The position numbers were made by a program, and so were the translations under genes. The notes beneath the pieces were generated by a model that was not told the origin of the DNA, made no database searches, and worked only from the letters and a program-made list of their open reading frames with translations. DNA of 43,663 nt from Vectrevirus T205P5. Positions 9,452 through 32,350 of the stretch are shown one piece after another. Each line of letters opens with the position of its first letter. Position 1 is the first letter of the stretch. Location of the stretch: the sequence record OZ035792.1. One strand, given 5' to 3'.

Positions 9452-9602
9452 GGTAAAGGCTGGCACTAGTCAGCCTATCAAGGCGCAAACCAAGCTCTTT
9501 AACAATTTGGATGGTAGCTTCTTAGTCTGGATAGGTTAAACCTAGGAGATTCTCTTGAGTCTCCTATAATGTAACCTAACTAACTAAATGAGGATTAATA
9601 AC

Positions 9603-9959
9603 ATGGCTATGTCTAATATGACTTACTCTCAGGTTTACAACACCGCTCATGCTGCATTAGTTGAACGTATCTGGAATGATGCTATTGAGTGTATCGATAA
9701 CGCACATGATGCAATCCATGAGGTAGCGGACAGTGCTGTACCAATTTATTATGCTGACATCTTCTCAGTGATGGCGAGTGAAGGCATTGATCACTTCTTC
9801 GAAGACTCCGGCCTGATGCCAGATACTAGGGATGTAACGGTCGTACTACAAGCCCGTATTTATGAACAACTCACCATTGATTTATGGGAACGTGTTCAAG
9901 ATATGATTGTTGCGTACACCAATTACGCTGAGGATTCAGAAGAAGAAGAGGAAGAATAA
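9603..9959 (+). CDS. ocr: Ocr (gp0.3-like) DNA-mimic anti-restriction protein
   Basis: [47 protein letters not shown] closely matches T7 Ocr as recalled; polyacidic C-terminus; GAGGA RBS before the ATG at 9603. Confidence 0.88.
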
Positions 9960-13988: not shown

Positions 13989-14004
13989 GTCTCACACGTG
14001 AGAC
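13989..14004 (+). repeat. Conserved palindrome GTCTCAC-AC-GTGAGAC, copy 1 of 6
   Basis: Identical 7-bp arms shared with the copies at 14171, 16381, 17526, 22622 and 39188; sits immediately upstream of a phage promoter. Confidence 0.8.
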
Positions 14005-14027
14005 TTATTTACCGGACACTATAGGAT
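14005..14027 (+). promoter_or_regulatory. SP6-type phage RNAP promoter, first after the RNAP gene
   Basis: TTATTTACCGGACACTATAGGAT. Confidence 0.7.
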
Positions 14028-14371: not shown

Positions 14372-16360
14372 ATGGCTATTATTCAGAATGTACCGTGTCC
14401 TGCCTGTCAAAAGAATGGACATGATATTACTGGCAACCATCTTATGATATTTGAGGATGGCGCTGGTTACTGTAACCGTGGTCACTTCCATGATAATGGG
14501 AAGCCTTATTACCATAAGCCAGAGGGTGGTATCGAGATAACCGAATTGCCTATTACTGGCAATATCAAATATACACCCTCTCAATTCAAAGAAATGGAGA
14601 AGGAAGGGAAGATAAGCGACCCTAAGCTACGCGCCATCGCACTTGGTGGTATGCGTATGAAAGACCGTTGGGAGGTTATGAATGAGCAAGAAAGGGCAGA
14701 CCAAGAAGCAGAGTGGAAACTTGATGTTGAATGGTTCCTCACGCTTAAGCGTAAGAACCTTGTATCCCGTCACATTCGAGGTGACATCGCAGCAATGTAC
14801 GATGTGCGCGTTGGACACGATGAAGAGGGAAGAGTCAACCGTCACTATTATCCACGATATGAAAAGGGTGTGCTTGTTGGAGCAAAATGCCGGACGTTGC
14901 CGAAGGATTTTAAGTTCGGACACCTAGGTAAACTCTTTGGTATGCAAGACCTTTTCGGTATGAACACTTTGTCTCACGTGTTAGACAAGGGGAGACGAAA
15001 GGATTGCTTGCTTATTGTAGGCGGTGAACTTGATGCACTAGCAGCGCAGCAGATGCTCCTTGATTCTGCCAAGGGTACTAAGTGGGAGGGTCAGCCATAC
15101 CATGTATGGTCTGTCAACAAAGGCGAGTCTTGCCTTGAAGAGATAGTGCAGAACCGCGAGCATATCGCCCAATTCAAGAAGATTATATGGGGTTTTGATG
15201 GAGATGAGGTAGGGCAGAAGCAGAATCAGCAAGCGGCTCGCCTGTTTCCTGGCAAATCCTATATCCTTGAATATCCCTCTGGTTGCAAAGATGCTAACAA
15301 GGCATTGATGGCTGGCAAGGCTAAAGAGTTTGTAGATGCATGGTTTAATGCCAAGTCATCTGATGAAGTCTTTGGTAGCCAGATTAAATCTATCGCATCT
15401 CAAAGGGATAAGCTCAAGGCTGCACGTCCAGAGCAAGGACTATCATGGCCTTGGCCTAAGCTGAACAAGGTAACGCTAGGTATTCGTAAGAATCAGCTTA
15501 TCATTGTAGGTGCAGGGTCTGGTGTAGGTAAGACTGAGTTCCTTCGTGAAGTAGTTAAGCACCTCATTGAAGAACACGGTGAATCTGTAGGCATCATTTC
15601 TACAGAAGACCCGATGGTCAAGGTGTCCCGTGCTTTTATCGGCAAGTGGATTGATAAGCGTATTGAGTTACCGCCAACCAACGACCCGAAAGAAGATGGA
15701 TACCGTGAGGTGTTCGACTACACCGAGGAAGAAGCTAACGCCGCCATTGATTATGTAGCTGATACAGGTAAGCTGTTTGTAGCTGACCTAGAGGGTGACT
15801 ATTCGATGGAAAAGGTAGAGCAAACTTGCCTAGAGTTTGAGGCTATGGGCATTTCTAATATCATCATTGATAACTTAACGGGGATTAAATTAGATGAGCG
15901 TGCTTTTGGTGGGAAGGTTGGTGCACTTGATGAATGCGTCAAGCGGATTGGTACTATCAAAGACCGACACCCGGTTACTATATTCCTTGTATCACACCTT
16001 ACACGTCCTCCGGCAAACCGTACCCAACACGAAGAAGGTGGCGAAGTTATCCTTTCTGACTTCCGAGGCTCAGGCGCTATCGGATTCTGGGCATCTTACG
16101 CCTTGGGGATTGAGCGTAATACAAGAGCTGAAACGCTTGACGAAAGGACTACCACGTACATCTCATGTGTCAAAGACCGCGACCAAGGTATCTGGACTGG
16201 AACCAAGGTCATGCTTAAGGGTGACATTCAAACCGGACGTTTAATGGAACCACAAGCCCGTACTAAGTCATTTGACACCGGCGAAGCAAGGCAACAAGAA
16301 GTACCGGATTTACCGGACACTATAGAAGAGACTAACTTCGATGAAGAAAGTGAGTTCTGA
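14372..16360 (+). CDS. DNA primase/helicase (T7 gp4-like)
   Basis: N-terminal Cys4 zinc ribbon (CPACQ...CNRGH), TOPRIM-like VGGELDALA, Walker A GAGSGVGKTEF, acidic C-terminal tail ending EESEF. Confidence 0.95.
   Translation: MAIIQNVPCPACQKNGHDITGNHLMIFEDGAGYCNRGHFHDNGKPYYHKPEGGIEITELPITGNIKYTPSQFKEMEKEGKISDPKLRAIALGGMRMKDRWEVMNEQERADQEAEWKLDVEWFLTLKRKNLVSRHIRGDIAAMYDVRVGHDEEGRVNRHYYPRYEKGVLVGAKCRTLPKDFKFGHLGKLFGMQDLFGMNTLSHVLDKGRRKDCLLIVGGELDALAAQQMLLDSAKGTKWEGQPYHVWSVNKGESCLEEIVQNREHIAQFKKIIWGFDGDEVGQKQNQQAARLFPGKSYILEYPSGCKDANKALMAGKAKEFVDAWFNAKSSDEVFGSQIKSIASQRDKLKAARPEQGLSWPWPKLNKVTLGIRKNQLIIVGAGSGVGKTEFLREVVKHLIEEHGESVGIISTEDPMVKVSRAFIGKWIDKRIELPPTNDPKEDGYREVFDYTEEEANAAIDYVADTGKLFVADLEGDYSMEKVEQTCLEFEAMGISNIIIDNLTGIKLDERAFGGKVGALDECVKRIGTIKDRHPVTIFLVSHLTRPPANRTQHEEGGEVILSDFRGSGAIGFWASYALGIERNTRAETLDERTTTYISCVKDRDQGIWTGTKVMLKGDIQTGRLMEPQARTKSFDTGEARQQEVPDLPDTIEETNFDEESEF
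16307..16330 (+). promoter_or_regulatory. SP6-type phage RNAP promoter embedded in the 3' end of the primase/helicase gene
   Basis: GATTTACCGGACACTATAGAAGAG; encodes PDLPDTIEE. Confidence 0.7.
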
Positions 16361-17567: not shown

Positions 17568-17675
17568 GCATTATGCCACGTGATTATGATTCTGATTGGG
17601 ACTATTATGACTCAATGAATCCAAAACCCGAACGTTCAGATGATTACTACGAAACAGAGGCAATGTATGAATACT
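17568..17675 (+). CDS. Small acidic ORF (35 aa), hypothetical
   Basis: GGAGGT RBS; overlaps the DNA polymerase start. Confidence 0.3.
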
Positions 17676-20213
17676 ATTGATTGGAAGAAGGAAGCGGAAG
17701 GGCGGATCCTAGTTATGGACGCCGAAGCAAAAGGCTTGCTTGATGCCATACGCTATGGTCATCGTGAAGATGTGCACATCATTTGCTGCATGGATTTACT
17801 CACCACTGAGGAGTTCCTATTCTTCGACCCATATGAGATGCGTGACCCTGAGGCAAGGGAGCGCCTGAAGGAGTGGGAAGGCCATCAAGACGGAACCTTG
17901 GTTGATGGTGTTAACTTCCTGAAGCATTGTGAAGCTATTGTGTCACAGAACTTCCTAGGGTATGACGGACTTCTCTTTGAGAAAGCATTCCCTGATATTT
18001 GGAAAGGCTTTAACTATACCGAGAAGCGCGGTAAGGGCAGACTCCGTGCTGACCTGTGTCCGGTGCGAGTCATGGATACGCTGGTGATGAGTCGCCTGTT
18101 AAACCCCGATAGACGCCTCCCTCCGCAAGCATATGCCAAAGGTATGGGTAACGTCGCCCCTCACTCAATTGAGGCGCACGGCATCCGTATAGGCCGCTAT
18201 AAACCGGAGAACGAGGACTGGTCTAAACTAACTGACCACATGGTTCACCGTGTACGTGAGGACGTGGCGATTGGTCGTGACTTGTTCCTCTGGCTCTTTA
18301 ACGGGGAATGGATGGAGCACAAACGCCGTGGCGTGAATAAACGCACTGGCCTAGGTATTGAGACAGCCTTCCACATGGAGTCCATTGTGGCGCTGGAGAT
18401 GAGCCGTCAGGCAGAGCGTGGATTCCGTCTGGATATTGACAAAGCTTTGGCCCGATGCGAAGAATTGGACGCTAAGATTGATGAGACAGTCGCAGCGTTC
18501 CGCCCTCACATGCCTATGCGTATCAAGTCTAAACCTTTTAAACCGGAAGAAAAGAATGAAGTATGCCAACGCGCAAATGAGTATGGAGCTAGCAACAATA
18601 TACCTACTGTCCTTGACCCCTCACACTTTCTTCATGCCGAGAGACGAGGAGATCGCAAGACAGTATGGAGTGTCACTACTAAGTCTGGTGATTGGTCGGC
18701 TAGTGTCAAGAAAGACTTTCCTCACCTTAGAGGAAACCGTAATGACACGCCAAGCATCAAGTGGATTGGCGCTTACTCGCCTGTTACTTTCGAAGAGATT
18801 CCCTTGGGTAACAGGGATACAGTTAAGCAAGTGCTCTATGATTATGGATGGAAAGGTGTTGAATTTAACGATACCGAGCAAGCGCATCTCGATGAGTATG
18901 GCGTATTACCAAAACCTTGGAGTGGAAAGATAAATGAAAAGTCTCTTACTTTATGGCAAGAGAGAGCCGCACGTGAAGGTAAAACAGTACCCGATTGGTG
19001 CTTGGGTATCGCTGCATGGTACATACTCGTATCCCGTCGTGGTCAGATACTTAACCGTGGTGACGTTGAAGCCTTCAACGAGAAGGGAACGTGGCCCTCG
19101 CAGGCTGGTGTACGAAAGTGTCGCGGCCTTGTACCTGTAGCATTCAACAAGGAGCTAGGAATCAATGCGCAGCAATACTACGAAAGGTACGGATGCTGGC
19201 CTACGTCAGACAAGGATGACGGGGAGTGGCGTGTTCCAGCTGTTGCTATTAGCATTGGCACTTCTACGTTCCGTATGCGTCATCGTAACGTGGTTAATAT
19301 TCCTGCCCGTGGCTTGTATCCTTTACGTGATTTATTCATAGCAGGTAAAGGCAAGCTAATCCTTGGTTGTGACGGTGCAGGTCTTGAACTGCGCGTCCTG
19401 TCTCACTTCATGAATGACCCTGAGTACCAAGAGATTGTATTGCATGGTGACATCCATACACATAACCAGATGAAGGCTGGTCTTCCTAAGCGTGACATGG
19501 CGAAGACGTTTATATACGCTTTCCTCTATGGCTCTGGTATAGCTAACCTTGCAGCAGTCTGCGGTGTTACTGAGGAAGAAATGAAGGAAGTTGTGGCAAG
19601 ATTCGAGATTGAACTACCGTCTCTTGCACGTCTTCGTGAGAATGTTATCGCACAAGGTAACAAGTTTGGCTACCTGCAAGCACCTGATGGGCATTGGGGT
19701 CGCATCCGCATGTCTGGTGGTGAACTTAAAGAGCACACGATGCTTAACGTATTACTCCAGATGACTGGCTCTTTGTGTATGAAATATGCATTAGTCAAGG
19801 CATTTGCAGTAATGCGCAAGGAAGGTGTAGCTTTGGATGCTATGGGAAATCCTTGTGGTGTGGCTAACGTGCATGATGAAATCCAGATGGAAGTTCCTGA
19901 AGAGGAGGTCTTGTATCTTAACTACGACCTACCTTTCACCTTAGATGGGTTCGAAACAGAGAAGGCTGCCGTGCAAGCAGTGTTCGATGCAGAGGAGAAA
20001 CGTGTTCATGTGGATTCTGAAGGACGTATGTGGTCCGCTGCAAACCTCGTTAGTGTTGATGCTGATGCTGGTGTATTGCATTGCCAGCGCCGTTATCACC
20101 GTGCAGGTCATATCATTGCCGACGCCATGACTTGGGCAGGGCAGTATCTGAAGATGCGTTGCCCGATGGCAGGCGAATATAAGATTGGCGCAAGTTGGAA
20201 GGAAACACACTGA
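17667..20213 (+). CDS. DNA polymerase, family A, with N-terminal 3'-5' exonuclease domain
   Basis: Motif A DGAGLELRVLSHF, motif B RDMAKTFIYAFLYGSG, motif C VHDE; AGAGG RBS before the internal ATG at 17667. Confidence 0.9.
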   Translation: MNTIDWKKEAEGRILVMDAEAKGLLDAIRYGHREDVHIICCMDLLTTEEFLFFDPYEMRDPEARERLKEWEGHQDGTLVDGVNFLKHCEAIVSQNFLGYDGLLFEKAFPDIWKGFNYTEKRGKGRLRADLCPVRVMDTLVMSRLLNPDRRLPPQAYAKGMGNVAPHSIEAHGIRIGRYKPENEDWSKLTDHMVHRVREDVAIGRDLFLWLFNGEWMEHKRRGVNKRTGLGIETAFHMESIVALEMSRQAERGFRLDIDKALARCEELDAKIDETVAAFRPHMPMRIKSKPFKPEEKNEVCQRANEYGASNNIPTVLDPSHFLHAERRGDRKTVWSVTTKSGDWSASVKKDFPHLRGNRNDTPSIKWIGAYSPVTFEEIPLGNRDTVKQVLYDYGWKGVEFNDTEQAHLDEYGVLPKPWSGKINEKSLTLWQERAAREGKTVPDWCLGIAAWYILVSRRGQILNRGDVEAFNEKGTWPSQAGVRKCRGLVPVAFNKELGINAQQYYERYGCWPTSDKDDGEWRVPAVAISIGTSTFRMRHRNVVNIPARGLYPLRDLFIAGKGKLILGCDGAGLELRVLSHFMNDPEYQEIVLHGDIHTHNQMKAGLPKRDMAKTFIYAFLYGSGIANLAAVCGVTEEEMKEVVARFEIELPSLARLRENVIAQGNKFGYLQAPDGHWGRIRMSGGELKEHTMLNVLLQMTGSLCMKYALVKAFAVMRKEGVALDAMGNPCGVANVHDEIQMEVPEEEVLYLNYDLPFTLDGFETEKAAVQAVFDAEEKRVHVDSEGRMWSAANLVSVDADAGVLHCQRRYHRAGHIIADAMTWAGQYLKMRCPMAGEYKIGASWKETH

Positions 20214-20486: not shown

Positions 20487-21044
20487 ATGGATGAACTGAA
20501 CACTAAGATGCTCAAGAAAGTTTATAATCTTGTATATAGTATCACGGGCCTACAATTCTACCCTGTAGGCGGTGCGGTTCGTGACACCCTGTACGGATTA
20601 ACACCTAAAGACTATGATATGGTGTTGCCTGTAGGGTCTATGGCAGATTCTCAGGCGCACGAAATCATGGAAAATATCTCTGAAGAGATGGCAATTATGG
20701 GATTTAGTACCAAACTCTACCAATCATACGGTATCAATTTAGGTTATGAAATCAACCCTACCTCTTTTCAGGCTATGTTCCTTAGCTGCATGAAAGTGCA
20801 GATGCGTAATTGCCAACTTGATTTGCTTCTTTCTAAGGCTGAAACCATCCAAGATCATGTACGTAAGCACGATTGCAATATGAATATGGTGTGGTTCGAT
20901 GGTAAAGATATCAAGTGGGAGCACGGCGGTGTTACTCCTTTCGTTCCTGTGTTAGAGTTCAACCCTGACGGATGTGATCGTCGCATTGCTTACATGGACA
21001 AGAAGCGCCATGAACTTATCCGTCACAAATTAATGCATCTTTGA
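20487..21044 (+). CDS. Nucleotidyltransferase, CCA-adding/poly(A) polymerase head-domain family (pol beta superfamily)
   Basis: YPVGGAVRDTLYGLTPKDYDMVL matches the catalytic head motif of class II tRNA nucleotidyltransferases (E. coli CCA: [23 protein letters not shown]); only about 185 aa, so head domain only; GGAGGA RBS before the internal ATG. Confidence 0.6.
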   Translation: MDELNTKMLKKVYNLVYSITGLQFYPVGGAVRDTLYGLTPKDYDMVLPVGSMADSQAHEIMENISEEMAIMGFSTKLYQSYGINLGYEINPTSFQAMFLSCMKVQMRNCQLDLLLSKAETIQDHVRKHDCNMNMVWFDGKDIKWEHGGVTPFVPVLEFNPDGCDRRIAYMDKKRHELIRHKLMHL

Positions 21045-21068
21045 TTTACCGGACACTATAGAAGGAAG
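21043..21068 (+). promoter_or_regulatory. SP6-type phage RNAP promoter
   Basis: GATTTACCGGACACTATAGAAGGAAG; followed by an AT-rich TAGGT-repeat leader. Confidence 0.8.
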
Positions 21069-21130: not shown

Positions 21131-21508
21131 ATGTCTATGGTAACTACTCTGGTATTTGTAGCTCAATACTTTCGTGGTCTGGCTAATAAGTTCAAGTCCA
21201 AGGCTATCAAAGCTATTGAGTCTCGCATCGAGGCAGTACAGGCAGAGCAAGTTAAAGTTGAAGAACATCGTAGTTCTCAAATGATTGACTGCCATAACCG
21301 CTACTATGCATCTCGTGATGACCTTAATGCACGCCAAGTCAAAGAGGTTGAAGAGATGCTGGCACGTCACCAGCAAGAGCGCGACAGCCTGAAAGCTGAA
21401 TTTGAAGAGAACAAGGCATCCATCGCCCTTGTACATCAAGCCGCATCTGACAACCTGAAGAAAGAGATTGTTATGCTGGAAATTGAGTTAGACAACCTGA
21501 CCAAATAA
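21131..21508 (+). CDS. Hypothetical coiled-coil protein (125 aa)
   Basis: AGGAGA RBS; heptad-like charged sequence. Confidence 0.55.
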   Translation: MSMVTTLVFVAQYFRGLANKFKSKAIKAIESRIEAVQAEQVKVEEHRSSQMIDCHNRYYASRDDLNARQVKEVEEMLARHQQERDSLKAEFEENKASIALVHQAASDNLKKEIVMLEIELDNLTK

Positions 21509-21530
21509 TTACTGGACACTATAGAACAAT
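21507..21530 (+). promoter_or_regulatory. SP6-type phage RNAP promoter (TATAGAAC variant)
   Basis: AATTACTGGACACTATAGAACAAT. Confidence 0.7.
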
Positions 21531-21585: not shown

Positions 21586-22392
21586 ATGGCACGTGGTGAT
21601 TTTGATTTTGGTGCTCAGGTTACTAAAGCTGAAGGTAAGGTTTTTAAGAACCCTGAAGTTGGTGATCATGAAGCAGTAATCTCTGGCATCATTCATGTGG
21701 GTTCCTTCCAAGATATCTTTAAGAAAGGTAATACCACTGAAGTTAAGAAGCCAGCAAACTTTGTTCTTGTTAAGATTGTACTGATGGGTGACGATGACAA
21801 GAACGAAGATGATTCTCGCATGGAACAGTGGATGGCTGTGCCTCTTAAGTCTGGTGACAAGGCAACCTTGACTAAGTTCCTGAATGCAGTTGACCCTAAA
21901 GAGCTGCTTGGTGGTTTCGATGACTTCATCGGTGAATGCCTGACTGCAACTATGGTTGGCTCTGGAGACAAGAATGATGATGGTACTTTCAAGTATGTTA
22001 ACTGGAAAGGCTTTGGCGGTATGCCTGATAAGTTGAAGAAGCTTGTACTGGCTCAGGTAGAAGAGGAAGGTCTGTCTATGACAGGTCATATCACCTTCGA
22101 CAAGCTGACCAAAGAAATCCTTGATGACATCCCAGCTAACTTGGTGCGTCAATACTTCCTTAATGAAACACCTCGTGGTAAGAACCTGTCTGTTGCTGGT
22201 TCTCACGTAGAAGCAATCATTAAAGCTGCTCGTGAAGAAGACCCAGAATGGAAGAAGGCTAAGAAGAAAGATGACGAGGATGCTACTCCAGCTAATCGTA
22301 AATCTCTGGATACTGGTGAGTCTGTTCCACAGGAAGTACCTGAAGCAGAAGACACTCCTGCACCGGAGATGGATGAGGACGCGGAATATTAA
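21586..22392 (+). CDS. Acidic-tailed protein (268 aa), possible single-stranded DNA-binding protein
   Basis: High-expression codon usage; C-terminal acidic tail ending EMDEDAEY, like the polymerase-docking tails of T7 gp2.5 and gp4; no direct sequence match recognised. Confidence 0.4.
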   Translation: MARGDFDFGAQVTKAEGKVFKNPEVGDHEAVISGIIHVGSFQDIFKKGNTTEVKKPANFVLVKIVLMGDDDKNEDDSRMEQWMAVPLKSGDKATLTKFLNAVDPKELLGGFDDFIGECLTATMVGSGDKNDDGTFKYVNWKGFGGMPDKLKKLVLAQVEEEGLSMTGHITFDKLTKEILDDIPANLVRQYFLNETPRGKNLSVAGSHVEAIIKAAREEDPEWKKAKKKDDEDATPANRKSLDTGESVPQEVPEAEDTPAPEMDEDAEY

Positions 22393-22401
22393 GGAGAAAG
22401 G

Positions 22402-22620
22402 ATGAAAGTACAAATCGTAACCCTGCACTGCAAGAAAGGTATCACAACGCTCGGAGGTGGCACTTTCCACTCTTTCTCCGAAGGGGAGATTTATGCTGAC
22501 CTGCACTACATCTGGCGCGACGGACAGCACGTGGTGAACTACAGCGACCCAGCTACGGGGAAACGCCACGGCGTATCGCTTCCGGCGCATGACATTGCTC
22601 AGGTGAACACAGTTTTATAA
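22402..22620 (+). CDS. Hypothetical protein (72 aa)
   Basis: AAGGAGA RBS; ORF-track ORF. Confidence 0.5.
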   Translation: MKVQIVTLHCKKGITTLGGGTFHSFSEGEIYADLHYIWRDGQHVVNYSDPATGKRHGVSLPAHDIAQVNTVL

Positions 22621-22621
22621 A

Positions 22622-22637
22622 GTCTCACGTGTGAGAC
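22622..22637 (+). repeat. Conserved palindrome GTCTCAC-GT-GTGAGAC, copy 5 of 6
   Basis: Exact arms; directly after a stop codon and 15 nt upstream of a strong promoter. Confidence 0.8.
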
Positions 22638-22652
22638 AAATCGGTGTCCGGT

Positions 22653-22676
22653 ATTTACTGGACACTATAGAAGAGA
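22653..22676 (+). promoter_or_regulatory. SP6-type phage RNAP promoter (consensus)
   Basis: TATTTACTGGACACTATAGAAGAG. Confidence 0.85.
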
Positions 22677-22725
22677 AGAATTTTAATCGGCGATAATGCC
22701 ATAACCAACAAAAGGAGAATTTAAT

Positions 22726-23097
22726 ATGTTCAAGATTGAAACTATCGTAAACCGTGTTGTTAAAGGTGCTGCTCTGGTATCCGTTGAGTCTTTCATTATC
22801 GTCGATGAAGCTGATCAACTGGTAGCTGGTACTAAGGCTTACGATACCCGTGAAGAGGCTCAGGCTAAGATTGACAGCATGGGTAACTTCGCTGCTGGTC
22901 TGGAGTTCGCTCGTGCTTGCTTCCCTGAGCAGGCTGACAAAGCTCAGATTGGTAAGGCTAATATCGTAGCTGAATATCTGGATTGGGTTGCTGCTGGTAA
23001 ACCAGTGAAAGAAGTTAAGGCTGCTGAAGAAGCTGAAGCTCCAGCAGAAGAAGTAGCTGCACCGGAAACTCCGGTAAGCGAAGAGGAAGAATTTTGA
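22726..23097 (+). CDS. Highly expressed small acidic-tail protein (123 aa), unknown function
   Basis: AAGGAG RBS; strong codon bias; own consensus promoter upstream and terminator downstream; C-terminus ends VSEEEEF. Confidence 0.65.
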   Translation: MFKIETIVNRVVKGAALVSVESFIIVDEADQLVAGTKAYDTREEAQAKIDSMGNFAAGLEFARACFPEQADKAQIGKANIVAEYLDWVAAGKPVKEVKAAEEAEAPAEEVAAPETPVSEEEEF

Positions 23098-23156
23098 TAA
23101 TAGCAGGTGTTGCCTCTGTTAGTCCTGGTTGACTATCACGCTCACCTCATCTAATG

Positions 23157-23190
23157 CCCTGTCTGCCTTAGTGTAGGCAGGGTCTTTTGC
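23157..23190 (+). terminator. Tphi-like terminator hairpin with U-tract
   Basis: CCCTGTCT...AGGCAGGG stem followed by TCTTTTG; paralogous in sequence to the terminator after the capsid gene. Confidence 0.55.
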
Positions 23191-23214
23191 GTAATAGTTA
23201 TTGGAGAATGAATT

Positions 23215-23454
23215 ATGCCGACTATTGAAGAACGTATCGTTTTGGACACTTACTTTGACTATAAGACCCTTATGCATGTCGGAGTTGCGTATGACTTTAA
23301 TAGCCATGAGGTGTATGTAAGGGTGGAGCAAAGAGATAAATCTCGCCTCATGCAGAACTTATACGAGAAAGTGTCCTCCTTAATGAAGGGGTGGCCTACA
23401 TGTCAAGACCAAACTTCAACTTCGGAGCTACAGTCTCGGAGGACAGCAATTTAA
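23215..23454 (+). CDS. Hypothetical protein (79 aa)
   Basis: GGAGAA RBS; its 3' end overlaps the exonuclease start in another frame. Confidence 0.3.
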   Translation: MPTIEERIVLDTYFDYKTLMHVGVAYDFNSHEVYVRVEQRDKSRLMQNLYEKVSSLMKGWPTCQDQTSTSELQSRRTAI

Positions 23455-24431
23455 TATTGTGGCCGACTGAGGGTAATCGAATCGCTTTAATAGATGCCGA
23501 TATGTTACCTTACATCGTCGGGTATACAATCAGTGACATGACTTATGTACGAGCCACAACTCGTGTTAAGTCAGGACAAGTCCCATCAATCAAAGATACC
23601 CCTGAGTGTAAGCAAGCGTGTGACCGTGTGAACTCCTTGCTTAACTCTTGGGTGTATGCAGCAGAGTGTGATGCAGCTAAGTTATTCATGACGAAATCAG
23701 AAGCTAACTTCCGTGTTCGCCTAGCCTTCACCAAGCCTTATAAAGGTCAACGTAAGACCGAGAAGCCTCCGTTCTTCTATGAATTGCGAGAGCATCTCTT
23801 AGAGGTTCATGGTGCAATCTTGGCAGATGGAGAAGAGGCTGATGACCTCATGAGCATTGCACAATGGGACAGCCACCGCCGCTTCCAGCAAGATACAGGT
23901 AACGAGTTCCCTATCGGTAGTCCAGAGCATAAAGCATTCTCTGATACTTGCATCGTTTCCTTGGATAAGGATTTGATGATTGTTCCCGGTTGGCACCTTC
24001 AGCCGGGACAAGAGAAGAAATGGGTAGAGCCTATGGGTTGGCTTGAGTTACGCCGTAAGGCTAATGGTCAGGTTAAAGACCTTAAAGGTGCTGGCCTCAT
24101 GTTTCATTATGCACAGATGATTATCGGTGATGATATTGATAACTATGCTGGCATACCTGGACGTGGTGCTAAATACGCCTATGACCTTCTCAAAGATTGT
24201 AAGACAGAGAAAGAGTTGTACATGGCAGTGCTTGGTGCTTACAAGGCTAAGTTCGGACATGGACAAGTTAAGATTAAGAATTACCGAGGTGGTTATCGTA
24301 TCGGCAAGGCTTTTGACCTGATGCTCGAATGTGGTCGCCTAGCTCACATGGCAAGATTCAAAGGTGATATATGGCGAGCCGATAAGAACCCAATCTTGTG
24401 GGGAGATGATGCGGAATGGTTAGTAAATTAA
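23400..24431 (+). CDS. 5'-3' exonuclease (T7 gp6-like, FEN family)
   Basis: LIDADMLPYIVGY and GEEADDLMSI acidic metal-binding clusters typical of FEN/T7 gp6 exonucleases; start could instead be the GTG at 23391. Confidence 0.8.
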   Translation: MSRPNFNFGATVSEDSNLILWPTEGNRIALIDADMLPYIVGYTISDMTYVRATTRVKSGQVPSIKDTPECKQACDRVNSLLNSWVYAAECDAAKLFMTKSEANFRVRLAFTKPYKGQRKTEKPPFFYELREHLLEVHGAILADGEEADDLMSIAQWDSHRRFQQDTGNEFPIGSPEHKAFSDTCIVSLDKDLMIVPGWHLQPGQEKKWVEPMGWLELRRKANGQVKDLKGAGLMFHYAQMIIGDDIDNYAGIPGRGAKYAYDLLKDCKTEKELYMAVLGAYKAKFGHGQVKIKNYRGGYRIGKAFDLMLECGRLAHMARFKGDIWRADKNPILWGDDAEWLVN

Positions 24432-26431: not shown

Positions 26432-26605
26432 ATGGAAGGTAAACTGTATAGAGGGTACTTCGGTAACTTATATAAAGTAAGCTCTCGCGGTTTTGTATTG
26501 ACCTCTGATGATGAAGGTGCAATGTGGCACCTAAGTGCATATGGTTCTAACTTAGCATACTTTAAAGAGGCAATAGTCAAAGGTGTGATGAAGGAGGTGA
26601 AATGA
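26432..26605 (+). CDS. Small hypothetical protein
   Basis: GAGGA RBS; translationally coupled between neighbouring genes. Confidence 0.4.
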   Translation: MEGKLYRGYFGNLYKVSSRGFVLTSDDEGAMWHLSAYGSNLAYFKEAIVKGVMKEVK

Positions 26606-27549
26606 ACATCTTCCAATTCCTAGGTCTTCCAGAAGACCACCGCAATCATCCATTCATGCTGGTGAAGCATCGCGGTGAAGTTCCTGAGAAGAAACTTACT
26701 TTTCCATGTTATGCACAGGTGAAACGAGATGGAATATTCAGTGCTGTTGTGGTGCGCAATGATGGTGCTGTTGCCGTCTTTGGTCGTACTGGTAAGAAGC
26801 TCGCAAATGTTGAAGCCTTGGAAAAGACATTTAGTGTATTTCCTGTCGGGTTGTATCTTGGTGAGTTGCAATCTATGGCTGTTGATGTTTATCTTGAAGC
26901 TCTGTCAGGAGTGGTAAACCCTAATCGTACAGAGCCACTTGACTTCATAGGCCAGCAGATTAAAGACAACCTGTATATCGACTTCTTCGATATGTTAACT
27001 ATTAAGGCATTCCATGATGGATTCACTGATGTTTCTTATCTCAAACGTTACGATGCTTTACATCGTCGTATCGGCACTCATCTTAGCGGGTGCAACGCTA
27101 TCCTTCCTATCACTCCTTGCCATAATGAGCGAGAAGTTGAAGCGTTTGCGCAAGAGCAAATAGATGCAGGACGTGAGGGTGCTGTATTCAAACTGGACTG
27201 CGATTATGAAGCAGGACACAAAGGTTATCGTCAGACTAAAGAAGTCCGTAAGGTAACTTATGACCTTACTTGTATTGGCTTTGAAGAAGGTAAAGGTAAA
27301 TACAAAGGTAAGGTAGCTAACCTCATTTTCAAGTGGAAAGGGGGCAAGACAATCAAAGCTATGCTCGGTAAAGGGTGGACTCATGCAGATGCAGAACAGA
27401 TGTTCCACGACATTAAACATGGTGGACGATTGAATGTCATTGGTAAAATCTTTGAAGTCAAAGGTCTTCAGGATTCAAGCAAGGGCAACATTCGTCTGCC
27501 CAAAGCGGGAGAATTAAGACATGACAAAGATGAACCAGATTTCTTTTGA
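26602..27549 (+). CDS. ATP-dependent DNA ligase (T7 gp1.3-like)
   Basis: Motif I KRDG in CYAQVKRDGIFSAVVV, motif IV-like EGAVFKL, C-terminal OB-domain motif LPKAGELRHDK. Confidence 0.8.
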   Translation: MNIFQFLGLPEDHRNHPFMLVKHRGEVPEKKLTFPCYAQVKRDGIFSAVVVRNDGAVAVFGRTGKKLANVEALEKTFSVFPVGLYLGELQSMAVDVYLEALSGVVNPNRTEPLDFIGQQIKDNLYIDFFDMLTIKAFHDGFTDVSYLKRYDALHRRIGTHLSGCNAILPITPCHNEREVEAFAQEQIDAGREGAVFKLDCDYEAGHKGYRQTKEVRKVTYDLTCIGFEEGKGKYKGKVANLIFKWKGGKTIKAMLGKGWTHADAEQMFHDIKHGGRLNVIGKIFEVKGLQDSSKGNIRLPKAGELRHDKDEPDFF

Positions 27550-27736
27550 TAGCATGAAGGCAACTCGTGCAGTTGAGGTAGCAGAAGCTATCTTTGAAAC
27601 TTTATCCTGTGGCATGGAAGTGCCATATACTTTACTTGCTGATGCAGAAGAACTTGGTCTTTCTGTAGAAGCTATCCAAGAGAAGGTTGACGAATTATAT
27701 GGTACAGACGAAGAAGAAACCGACGATTTCATTTGA
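27521..27736 (+). CDS. Small acidic hypothetical protein (71 aa)
   Basis: GGGAGAA RBS; overlaps the ligase 3' end; acidic C-terminus EEETDDFI. Confidence 0.4.
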   Translation: MTKMNQISFDSMKATRAVEVAEAIFETLSCGMEVPYTLLADAEELGLSVEAIQEKVDELYGTDEEETDDFI

Positions 27737-32313: not shown

Positions 32314-32350
32314 GCCCTATCTACCTTGCGTAGGTAGGGTTCTTTTTGTT
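32314..32350 (+). terminator. Tphi-like terminator after the major capsid gene
   Basis: CCCTATCTA-ccttgcg-TAGGTAGGG hairpin with one G-U wobble, followed by TTCTTTTTGTT. Confidence 0.65.

What the first reader, a model, noticed from the sequence alone, without database searches (positions are those of the whole stretch)
22653..23190. Monocistronic high-expression unit for an unknown 123-aa acidic-tail protein
A consensus promoter, strong RBS, heavily biased codon usage and a Tphi-like terminator bracket a single small gene whose product ends in VSEEEEF. This is the same arrangement as the major capsid gene, whose terminator (32314-32350) is a sequence paralog (CCCTRTCT...TAGGYAGGG-TTCTTTT). 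The protein is probably very abundant, yet I recognise no homolog; the acidic tail with terminal aromatic residue resembles the polymerase-docking tails of T7 gp2.5 and gp4.
Basis: partly seen in the sequence, partly recalled or inferred. Interest (0 to 1): 0.5.

Follow-up and report, generated by a model that had tools for sequence, protein, structure and literature searches.

The report
Abundant acidic-tailed phage replication-module protein
A small, uncharacterised gene of a K1-5/SP6-like phage has signals for very high expression, and its product ends in the same acidic, phenylalanine-tipped tail as the phage's own helicase and probable DNA-binding protein, which suggests an unrecognised partner of the DNA replication machinery.

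Summary
The window is a Vectrevirus (K1-5/SP6-like). The gene at 22726-23097 is K1-5 gene 18 / SP6 gene 20 (phrog_4429, function unknown).

Expression signals:
- A consensus phage-RNAP promoter, a strong Shine-Dalgarno and three in-frame stop codons.
- The strongest codon bias of 39 genes (CAI 0.66; capsid 0.49).
- One of only three strong terminators in the window. It is a sequence paralog of the capsid terminator.

The terminator, and in most relatives the promoter, flank orthologs in other subfamilies, with each phage's own sequences. "Monocistronic" is only partly right, because no terminator separates the gene from two upstream promoters.

The protein has a confidently modelled non-OB alpha/beta core (residues 1-95). 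It matches no solved fold. A variable, disordered Ala/Glu/Pro linker and a conserved acidic-Phe tip follow.

New here: in seven divergent phages the primase-helicase and the neighbouring 268-aa protein end in the same kind of tip. The tips appear to track each other by lineage.

Best reading (about 0.5): an abundant replication/recombination accessory protein that docks through this tip on a site shared with the helicase and p268, probably on the DNA polymerase. It is not a gp2.5-type SSB; p268 is the better SSB candidate. Function is untested.

The parts
22653..22675 (+). SP6/K1-5-type phage RNA polymerase promoter ATTTACTGGACACTATAGAAGAG. The inferred start is G22670, by analogy with the SP6 promoter (my own knowledge).
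   Evidence: It is one of 12 full sites on the + strand and is identical to the capsid promoter from -17 to +3.
22670..22725 (+). 56-nt 5' untranslated leader with a small hairpin (GGCGATAATGCC) and the Shine-Dalgarno AAGGAG at 22712-22717.
   Evidence: The leader is nearly identical in K1-5 and SP6. A similar small hairpin is seen in the KL01 leader.
22726..23010 (+). Codons 1-95: the folded alpha/beta core. Strands at 3-13 and 16-26; helices at 42-51, 55-65 and 71-89. K37, A45, G58, K77, A78, N79, A82, W87 and G91 are invariant or nearly so.
   Evidence: pLDDT about 90 for residues 1-95 with alignment A2. for conservation; no significant fold match outside its own family.
23011..23076 (+). 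Codons 96-117: a low-complexity Ala/Glu/Pro/Val linker, predicted disordered and variable in length.
   Evidence: residues 101-106 and 108-114 have pLDDT below 50, and the 10-residue block means from residue 101 on are 48-56; indels among otherwise 87-97% identical homologs.
23077..23094 (+). Codons 118-123: the conserved tip SEEEEF, acidic residues followed by a C-terminal Phe.
   Evidence: all 120 close homologs end in (E/A)EEEF. Of 26 representatives of 50%-identity clusters, 17 end in an aromatic residue and 19 have one in the last three..
23095..23103 (+). Three consecutive in-frame stop codons, TGA TAA TAG.
   Evidence: read directly from the sequence; the same in K1-5.
23156..23190 (+). 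Intrinsic (class I, T-phi-like) terminator: 11-bp hairpin GCCCTGTCTGC/GTAGGCAGGGT followed by CTTTTG.
32314..32350 (+). Capsid-gene terminator, a sequence paralog of the terminator above (context).
21586..22392 (+). p268 (K1-5 gene 16 / SP6 gene 18). It co-inherits with the 123-aa gene and ends in the acidic tail ...EMDEDAEY. It is the candidate SSB/annealing protein (context; inferred).
   Evidence: No family assignment.
16340..16357 (+). C-terminal tip DEESEF of the primase-helicase (CDS 14372-16360). It is the same kind of tip (context).
21044..21066 (+). Upstream phage promoter. With the promoter at 21507-21529 it also feeds transcription into the 123-aa gene, since no terminator lies between.

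Best explanation
The gene encodes an abundant middle-class (DNA-metabolism) accessory protein of the SP6-like phage replication/recombination machinery.

Expression. A consensus phage-RNAP promoter adds to read-through from two promoters upstream. Strong translation signals and optimal codons follow. An efficient terminator then cuts transcription before the exonuclease and endonuclease genes. This should make the product one of the most abundant non-structural phage proteins.

Protein. A small, slightly acidic alpha/beta domain of a fold not seen before is joined by a flexible Ala/Glu/Pro linker to an acidic tip that ends in Phe.

Proposed mechanism. The same kind of tip ends the phage's primase-helicase and its probable SSB (p268). 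I infer that all three tips bind one shared basic, hydrophobic receptor site. By analogy with T7 gp4 and gp2.5, that site is most likely on the phage DNA polymerase, with the exonuclease or p268 itself as alternatives. The 123-aa protein would then be recruited to replication or recombination intermediates, or would compete there.

Shown: the expression signals, conservation, synteny, domain layout and shared tips. Inferred: abundance, the docking partner and the biochemical role.
For: Expression:
- Promoter, SD, CAI rank 1 of 39, Nc rank 1 of 39 and terminator.
- Orthologs rank 7/40, 1/43 and 4/49 by Nc, similar to their capsid genes.
- Each ortholog examined is followed by a GC hairpin plus T-run. 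In SP6, phiEa100, Vp670 and Nerthus it is preceded by a consensus copy of that phage's own promoter (checked against the promoter family in the last three). KL01 and MR4 show promoter-like elements by eye only, and CB5A has no recognisable promoter.

Core-gene status in the replication module:
- The order DNAP, p268, (small gene), this gene, exonuclease, endonuclease VII holds in Molineuxvirinae, Colwellvirinae and Gajwadongvirus, on hosts from Escherichia to Vibrio, Pseudomonas and Marinomonas.
- It holds even on metagenomic contigs carrying the most distant homologs.
- The gene co-occurs with p268: 212 versus 215 phage records, with nearly identical genus counts.

Domain layout:
- Core pLDDT is about 90 and the tail is disordered.
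- The linker has indels while the core is invariant.
- Window versus SP6 core: 18 synonymous and 6 non-synonymous codon differences.

Tip:
- 120 of 120 close homologs end EEEF, and 17 of 26 distant representatives end in an aromatic residue.
- Helicase, p268 and p123 all end in an acidic (or partly acidic) stretch followed by F/Y in 7 of 7 phages.
- By eye, the tips share lineage-specific features. In phiEa100 all three are weakly acidic (GASEF, DDKEF, AGEDF). In CB5A all three are Ser-rich (SQEF, ESEF, EESF). In Nerthus, p268 (EEQEFGE) and p123 (EEETFE) both carry residues after the F, while the helicase (DEKETY) does not.

Precedent:
- The acidic tail and terminal Phe of T7 gp2.5 dock on the gp5 basic patch and also engage gp4 and gp6 (PMC12339929; PMC4124056).
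Against: - There is no experimental evidence of any kind for this family. It is listed as 'unknown' in SP6-like genome papers (PMC4837284).
- The T7 polymerase elements that bind such tails are not alignable in this phage's polymerase. The front basic patch falls in a gap, and the thioredoxin-binding domain is replaced by a longer, unrelated insertion.
- An abundant protein with the same tip would compete with the helicase and the SSB. That needs a rationale.
- The tips are short and compositionally simple. The lineage trends rest on seven phages and were judged by eye, without a statistical test.
- About a quarter of the most distant homologs lack the aromatic tip.
- The first AlphaFold2 run, with a shallow alignment, gave low confidence.
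Confidence: 0.5

Rival explanations
1. It is itself the phage's single-stranded DNA-binding protein, with a non-OB fold. It would coat ssDNA at high copy number and use the acidic-Phe tip like the tails of gp2.5 or E. coli SSB. On this reading p268 is a single-strand annealing or recombination protein that partners the exonuclease.
For: - It has the highest expression signals in the replication module. SSBs are needed stoichiometrically.
- No recognisable SSB is annotated in these phages.
- The layout of disordered acidic linker plus aromatic tip is typical of SSBs (PMC12339929).
- Conserved Lys, Tyr and Trp sit in helix 3 (K77, Y84, W87).
- p268 shares an N-terminal motif with the exonuclease, as might be expected of an annealase-exonuclease pair.
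- There are weak BFVD hits to small proteins labelled SSB (E 0.3).
Against: - The model is not an OB fold. It has no significant similarity to any solved SSB or to gp2.5.
- The folded core is net negative (about -3; pI 4.9).
- By eye, the p268 sequence looks beta-rich in its N-terminal part, and p268 has the size and tail expected of a gp2.5 analogue.
- The BFVD SSB hits are not significant.
Confidence: 0.15
2. It is a host-directed decoy or inhibitor. One version is a mimic of the host SSB C-terminal tip that titrates host SSB-client enzymes. Another is an acidic DNA mimic or antagonist of a nucleoid protein, a positional analogue of T7 gp5.5 or gp5.9, which also lie between the polymerase and exonuclease genes.
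For: - It occupies the same genome position as T7 genes 5.3-5.9.
- T7 gp5.5 is likewise a small class II protein (its abundance is from my own knowledge).
- The protein is acidic overall (pI 4.3).
- Very high expression would suit titration of an abundant host target.
- The tip resembles, in outline, the acidic-Phe end of bacterial SSB.
Against: - It is conserved as a syntenic core gene across phages of very different hosts. Host-takeover genes are usually variable.
- The tip lacks the Ile-Pro-Phe of the host SSB tip. It also appears to vary by phage lineage along with the phage's own helicase and p268 tips. The SSB tip of these gammaproteobacterial hosts is essentially invariant (my own knowledge).
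- There is no similarity to gp5.5 or to any PADLOC model.
- The core charge is only mildly negative, unlike Ocr-type DNA mimics.
Confidence: 0.17
3. It is a phage-encoded polymerase cofactor (processivity or exchange factor). It would bind the large SP6-type insertion that replaces the T7 thioredoxin-binding domain, taking the place of host thioredoxin.
For: - The folded core (about 95 aa) is close to thioredoxin in size (109 aa; my own knowledge).
- SP6-like polymerases carry a longer insertion (about 110-140 residues) at the thioredoxin-binding position that is unrelated to T7's.
- The gene is inherited together with this polymerase type.
Against: - The model is not a thioredoxin fold.
- A 1:1 cofactor would not need expression far above that of the polymerase (CAI 0.66 versus 0.28).
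- Nothing here tests binding.
- I could not establish from the literature whether these phages depend on thioredoxin.
Confidence: 0.08
4. It is a virion or assembly component, such as a decoration or scaffold-like protein. This would explain expression signals that match the capsid gene.
For: - The promoter is identical to the capsid promoter from -17 to +3, and the terminator is a paralog of the capsid terminator.
- Codon bias is like that of the capsid gene.
Against: - The gene lies in the DNA-metabolism block, about 5 kb upstream of the portal, scaffold and capsid genes, in every relative.
- No PHROG structural category applies.
- No fold match to structural proteins is significant.
- The one 'head protein' annotation under this locus belongs to an UNVERIFIED record whose feature table is offset from its sequence.
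Confidence: 0.04

Closest known systems
T7 gp2.5 (ssDNA-binding protein) and its acidic C-terminal tail
   Same: - An abundant class II protein.
[quoted passage not shown] In T7 the tail docks on the DNA polymerase basic patch and also engages the helicase and the gene 6 exonuclease (PMC12339929, PMC4124056).
- Both genes have their own phage promoter.
   Different: - No sequence relationship (hhalign probability below 1%).
- The predicted core is a beta-hairpin plus three helices, not an OB fold.
- The core is half the size and net negative.
- The gene lies between polymerase and exonuclease, not before the helicase.
- The phage has a second, better gp2.5 analogue (p268).
T7 gp4 primase-helicase C-terminal tail (...SNDTDF)
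   Same: This phage's own helicase ends ...NFDEESEF, and the 123-aa protein ends ...SEEEEF. This matches the T7 situation in which several replisome proteins carry interchangeable acidic-Phe tips for one polymerase.
   Different: Here the tip sits on a small stand-alone protein with no recognisable enzymatic domain. There are three tail-bearing proteins rather than two.
Bacterial SSB C-terminal tip (...DDDIPF) as an interaction hub
   Same: The architecture is a folded domain, a low-complexity linker and a conserved acidic tip with a terminal Phe whose role is protein recruitment (PMC3936761, listed; otherwise my own knowledge).
   Different: - No OB fold.
- The tip lacks Ile-Pro.
- The linker is Ala/Glu/Pro-rich rather than Gly/Gln/Pro-rich.
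- The oligomeric state is unknown.
T7 gp5.5 / gp5.9 (small proteins encoded between DNA polymerase and exonuclease)
   Same: The genomic position is equivalent, and the proteins are small middle-gene products.
   Different: - No sequence similarity.
- T7 gp5.5 and gp5.9 target host H-NS and RecBCD.
- They are not conserved as core genes across subfamilies and carry no acidic-Phe tip.
phrog_4429 / SP6 gp20 / K1-5 gp18 family
   Same: Full-length match (E 7.6e-58), with 92-99% identity to the SP6 and K1-5 proteins.
   Different: Nothing differs. This is the family, and it has no assigned function.

Membership tests
phrog_4429 (SP6 gp20 / K1-5 gp18, unknown function) | Full-length profile match | tested here: met
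   E 7.6e-58, residues 1-123 against profile positions 1-121 of 121; 92% identity to SP6_20.
T7 gp2.5-like SSB | Sequence or profile homology to gp2.5 | tested here: not met
   hhalign of the 27-sequence alignment A2 against T7 gp2.5 gives probability 0.15%; no PDB sequence hit, although the PDB should include T7 gp2.5.
T7 gp2.5-like SSB | OB-fold core | tested here: not met
T7 gp2.5-like SSB | Acidic C-terminal tail ending in an aromatic residue | tested here: met
T7 gp2.5-like SSB | Binds ssDNA and the phage DNA polymerase | not testable with these tools
   This needs biochemistry.
Bacterial (E. coli-type) SSB | OB fold plus a ...D-D-D-I-P-F tip | tested here: not met
   Pfam, NCBIfam and PDB searches find nothing significant; the only rows returned are sub-threshold and unrelated. 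The tip is SEEEEF, without Ile-Pro.
T7 gp5.5 (H-NS antagonist, DUF2675) | Sequence or profile homology | tested here: not met
   hhalign probability 0.1%; no Pfam hit.
DUF1508 / UPF0339 (YegP-like beta-beta-beta-alpha unit) | Structural match of the N-terminal half | tested here: inconclusive
SP6-type single-subunit RNAP promoter | Match to the phage's own 23-nt consensus, in the correct orientation upstream of a gene | tested here: met
   exact core, and identical to the capsid promoter from -17 to +3.
Class I (T-phi-like) intrinsic terminator for phage RNAP | Stable GC-rich hairpin followed by a U-run, downstream of a stop codon | tested here: met
   Termination efficiency was not measured here. 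An SP6 class I terminator (t5) gave about 85% termination in vitro (PMC11347151), but I could not establish which SP6 terminator t5 is.
DNA-mimic proteins (Ocr, gp5.9 type) | Folded surface with a dense, DNA-like array of negative charge | tested here: inconclusive
   the core has pI 4.9 and a net charge of about -3, which is only mildly acidic. The charge is concentrated in the disordered tail. The surface of the model could not be inspected.

The most novel reading that the evidence does not exclude
SP6-like phages (Molineuxvirinae, Colwellvirinae and allies) run a replisome built around three proteins with the same acidic-Phe tip: the primase-helicase, p268 and this 123-aa protein. Two more proteins, p268 and the 5'-3' exonuclease, share an N-terminal F-[DN]-[FY]-G peptide. 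On this reading the 123-aa protein is a new kind of abundant hub or exchange factor with a novel fold. It could be the receptor for the N-terminal peptide, or a non-OB SSB. Either way it would organise polymerase, SSB and exonuclease traffic in a replisome that has neither a clamp nor thioredoxin.
Probability: 0.15. Interest if true: 0.75.

Novelty: new variant of a known kind. Interest (0 to 1): 0.55.

Why it matters
SP6/K1-5-like phages supply a standard laboratory RNA polymerase and are used as therapeutic phages. Their replication proteins other than polymerase and helicase are nevertheless unassigned, and no SSB is annotated.

This gene has the strongest expression signals in the DNA-metabolism module and is conserved across subfamilies and hosts. 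It carries the short docking-type tip that in T7 is essential for coupling the SSB and helicase to the polymerase. If the inference holds, it identifies a missing and abundant replisome component with a new fold. It also gives a simple handle for mapping the interaction network: tip peptides and a Phe123 deletion.

The compact promoter-leader-gene-terminator cassette, with tandem stop codons, is also a natural high-expression module for SP6-type polymerase systems.

Tried and rejected
Searches on the 123-aa protein that found nothing useful:
- Pfam, NCBIfam and PADLOC: nothing significant. The best is ODAD1_CC at E 0.036-0.1.
- PDB sequence search with the single sequence and with the profile: nothing.
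- Foldseek against BFVD: only a member of the same family (Pseudomonas phage BUCT553, E 6.6e-7).
- The AFDB50 library was unavailable.
- hhalign of the family against T7 gp2.5, T7 gp5.5 and the p268 family: no signal.
- Rfam on 22300-23500: no RNA family.

Other dead ends:
- The first AlphaFold2 run, with 20 near-identical sequences, gave pLDDT 56 and was discarded. The run with the diverse 27-sequence alignment replaced it.
- Two long repetitive proteins among the profile hits (P0138, P0146) were dismissed by eye as low-complexity artefacts.
- The search for related loci with the diverse alignment failed because no stretch was conserved enough. I used tblastn against the phage collection instead.
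- The 'major head / scaffolding protein' annotation under this locus in OR594181 comes from an UNVERIFIED record whose feature table is offset from the sequence. I rejected it.

Attempts to identify p268 as an SSB:
- No Pfam domain, no PDB hit and no gp2.5 similarity, even with a 34-sequence profile.
- The only hit is a sub-threshold NCBIfam match to a 'phage replication initiation protein, NGO0469 family' (E 9e-4, 18.8 bits against a cutoff of 75).

Attempt to map the T7 tail-binding sites onto this phage's polymerase:
- The regions are not alignable.

Literature:
- Searches for proteomics, transcriptomics or functional work on SP6 gp20 / K1-5 gp18 found only 'unknown function' tables.
- The primary SP6 paper (Dobbins 2004) is not held. 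I did not try to retrieve the K1-5/SP6 paper (Scholl 2004).
Full report
**What the window is.** The region 22400-23400 is 96-99.8% identical to Vectrevirus phages (K1-5, K1E, LL11 and others) and about 94% identical to Citrobacter phage CrRp3. The ORF at 22726-23097 (+, 123 aa) is K1-5 gene 18 and SP6 gene 20. It is annotated 'hypothetical' everywhere and belongs to phrog_4429, whose function is unknown. A published SP6-like genome table lists Gp18, Gp19 and Gp20 as 'Unknown'. It also notes that terminators lie after genes of unknown function and after the capsid gene (PMC4837284).

**Check of the observation.**
- Promoter. The 23-mer ATTTACTGGACACTATAGAAGAG at 22653-22675 matches the phage's own promoter family. 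The 12-nt core occurs 17 times with up to 2 mismatches, against 4.9 expected, and 12 sites have the full context. The -17 to +3 part is identical to the capsid promoter.
- Translation signals. AAGGAG lies 8 nt before the ATG.
- Codon bias. CAI is 0.66, using Sharp-Li E. coli weights typed in from memory. This is the highest of 39 genes, ahead of p268 (0.51) and the capsid gene (0.49). Wright's Nc, which needs no host table, also ranks the gene first.
- Stop codons. The ORF ends with three in-frame stops, TGA TAA TAG.
- Terminator. An 11-bp hairpin plus CTTTTG lies at 23156-23190. My strict scan finds only three strong intergenic + strand terminators in 43.7 kb, after discounting one hit inside a coding sequence: after the RNA polymerase gene, after this gene and after the capsid gene.
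- Paralogy. The p123 and capsid terminators are 79% identical over 62 columns. A G-C to A-T compensatory change sits in the stem.

One caveat applies. Promoters at 21053 and 21516 lie upstream with no terminator in between. The gene is thus also the 3'-most gene of longer transcripts, and 21.0-23.2 kb is better described as a high-expression island that this terminator closes.

**Is this selected or accidental?** I examined SP6, Erwinia phiEa100, Vibrio Vp670, Pseudomonas Nerthus and MR4, Klebsiella KL01 and Marinomonas CB5A.
- Every ortholog is followed by a GC hairpin plus T-run, and the hairpin sequence differs between phages.
- In SP6, phiEa100, Vp670 and Nerthus the ortholog is preceded by that phage's own promoter consensus. 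For phiEa100, Vp670 and Nerthus I confirmed that the element belongs to a family of 7-11 copies per genome. In Vp670 the identical 23-mer also precedes the capsid gene.
- KL01 and MR4 show promoter-like elements by eye only. CB5A has no recognisable promoter directly upstream.
- Two short metagenomic contigs that carry the most distant homologs show the same pattern: p268 tail, gene, terminator, exonuclease.
- The orthologs rank 7/40, 1/43 and 4/49 by Nc. Their capsid genes rank 1, 3 and 5.

High, insulated expression is therefore a conserved property of the family.

**The protein.**
- Close homologs (78-99% identical) have an almost invariant core of residues 1-95. The Ala/Glu/Pro/Val segment has indels, and the tip SEEEEF is nearly invariant.
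- A full-library profile search found 29 representatives of 50%-identity clusters, down to about 25-30% identity. In their alignment, K37, A45, G58, K77, A78, N79, A82, W87 and G91 are invariant or nearly so. The most recognisable stretch is GLEFAxA...GKANxVAxYLxW..GKP.
- With this alignment AlphaFold2 gives mean pLDDT 82, and about 90 for residues 1-95. The model has a long beta-hairpin (3-13, 16-26) and helices at 42-51, 55-65 and 71-89. The tail is disordered, with pLDDT below 50 at residues 101-106 and 108-114.
- It is not an OB fold. hhalign shows no relation to T7 gp2.5 or gp5.5.
- The core is mildly acidic (pI 4.9) and the whole protein has pI 4.3.
- Window versus SP6 in the core: 18 synonymous and 6 non-synonymous codon differences.

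**Context and the key new observation.** The gene order DNA polymerase, p268, (small gene), p123, 5'-3' exonuclease, endonuclease VII, phosphoesterase is conserved across Molineuxvirinae, Colwellvirinae and Gajwadongvirus. p123 and p268 co-occur in 212 and 215 phage records, with nearly the same genus counts.

I listed the C-termini of the window's genes. The primase-helicase ends ...NFDEESEF, p268 ends ...EMDEDAEY and p123 ends ...SEEEEF. The same holds in all seven divergent phages examined. By eye the tips also share lineage-specific features:
- phiEa100: GASEF, DDKEF, AGEDF (all weakly acidic).
- CB5A: SQEF, ESEF, EESF (all Ser-rich).
- Nerthus: p268 EEQEFGE and p123 EEETFE both carry residues after the F, while the helicase ends KETY.

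Across database homologs, 120 of 120 close p123 proteins end in (E/A)EEEF. Of 26 distant representatives, 17 end in an aromatic residue. In the p268 family, 119 of 120 have an aromatic residue in the last three positions.

In T7, the acidic tails of gp2.5 and gp4 both end in Phe. The gp2.5 tail docks on a basic patch of the polymerase. The tail, and its terminal Phe, are functionally essential, and it also engages the helicase and the gene 6 exonuclease (PMC12339929; PMC4124056).

**Interpretation.** The most economical reading is that the three tips address one receptor site in the phage's replication/recombination machinery. p123 would then be an abundant accessory factor of that machinery.
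- The receptor is most likely the polymerase, by analogy with T7. This is inference only. The T7 front basic patch falls in an alignment gap in SP6-like polymerases, and the thioredoxin-binding domain is replaced by a longer, unrelated insertion.
- p268 is the better candidate for the gp2.5 analogue. It has the right size, apparently beta-rich sequence in its N-terminal part (by eye), an acidic tail, its own promoter and the second-highest CAI.
- No search could assign p268 to any family.

**Rivals.**
- p123 as a non-OB SSB. This is plausible on abundance. The fold and the net-negative core argue against it.
- A host-directed decoy or DNA mimic. The position matches T7 genes 5.5/5.9. Core-gene conservation across very different hosts argues against it, as does the apparent tracking of the tip with phage rather than host proteins.
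- A thioredoxin-replacing polymerase cofactor. This is attractive given the different thumb insertion, but the fold is not thioredoxin-like and the expression level looks too high for a 1:1 cofactor.
- A virion component. The genome position and the lack of any structural-family match argue against it. The one 'head protein' annotation comes from an UNVERIFIED record with an offset feature table.

**Comparison with what is known.** In working principle this is closest to the acidic-tail docking system of T7 gp2.5/gp4 and to the C-terminal tip of bacterial SSB. It is not a member of either family, because the tests for fold and for sequence homology both failed. It is a member of phrog_4429, which has no function assigned. 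I rate it a new variant of a known kind: a known interaction device carried on a new, small, very highly expressed domain.

**Limits.**
- Abundance, binding partner and activity are all untested.
- The CAI weights were typed in from memory, although Nc agrees.
- Tip co-variation rests on seven phages and was judged by eye, without a statistical test.
- The AlphaFold2 model is a monomer built from a 27-sequence alignment.

Noticed in passing
window 21586-21621 (p268 N-terminus MARGDFDFGAQV) and 23400-23435 (exonuclease N-terminus MSRPNFNFGATV); also L008, L009, L010, L011, L012, L013: p268 and the 5'-3' exonuclease share an N-terminal peptide, F-[DN]-[FY]-G-[AG]-x-[VIL], in all seven phages examined. 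The peptide varies in parallel: FDYGGEV-type in both proteins of Vp670, Nerthus and CB5A, and FDFGA/FNFGA-type in the window, KL01 and MR4. By eye, comparison with the T7 gp6 sequence as I remember it places the motif in an N-terminal extension that T7 gp6 lacks. It may be a shared docking peptide for a common partner.
   Followed up: partly
window 21586-22392: The 268-aa protein (K1-5 gene 16 / SP6 gene 18) has its own promoter (21507-21529), the second-highest CAI (0.51) and a conserved acidic tail ending in F/Y. No family could be assigned by Pfam, PHROG function, PDB or hhalign against gp2.5. It is probably the missing SSB/annealing protein of SP6-like phages, but this is unproven.
   Followed up: partly
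window 22626-22646 and 13989-14005: A perfect small hairpin, GTCTCAC-NN-GTGAGAC, lies just upstream of two phage promoters: the p123 promoter, and the promoter with core at 14016, whose upstream end it abuts. The copy before the p123 promoter, with its AAATC flank, is conserved with compensatory changes in SP6, in Vibrio phage Vp670 and on a metagenomic contig (L015). It could be an RNA processing or stability site or a protein-binding site. No Rfam match in the copy scanned (22300-23500).
   Followed up: partly
window 26602-27549 (ligase C-terminus ...RHDKDEPDFF): The DNA ligase C-terminus ...HDK-x-x-x-D-[FY] is conserved in all seven phages and ends in an aromatic residue. It may be another terminal docking motif.
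   Followed up: no
window 27521-27736 and 9588-9959: Two more small acidic proteins. A 71-aa protein ends ...TDEEETDDFI and has CAI 0.43, fifth highest. A 123-aa protein ends ...DSEEEEEE.
   Followed up: no
window 21131-21508: A 125-aa coiled-coil-like protein with its own promoter (21044-21066) and CAI 0.49. Databases annotate it as 'polysaccharide chain length determinant protein', on a weak match only (TIGR03007, E 7e-5, 21 bits against a cutoff of 279). The name is probably a compositional artefact.
   Followed up: no
window 17640-20213 (DNA polymerase) versus T7 gp5 (L006 5354-7468): SP6-like polymerases lack the T7 front basic patch (KWKRRW). In place of the roughly 70-aa thioredoxin-binding domain they carry a longer, unrelated insertion of about 110-140 residues. 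A short basic insertion (RIRMSGGELKEH; RIRKKGGK in relatives) lies just after the position of the missing patch.
   Followed up: partly
L002 (OR594181.1, Escherichia phage vB_EcoM_SHAK7704): This UNVERIFIED record labels the DNA homologous to p123 as 'head scaffolding / major head protein', and its taxonomy says Kayfunavirus. The feature table appears shifted relative to the sequence.
   Followed up: no
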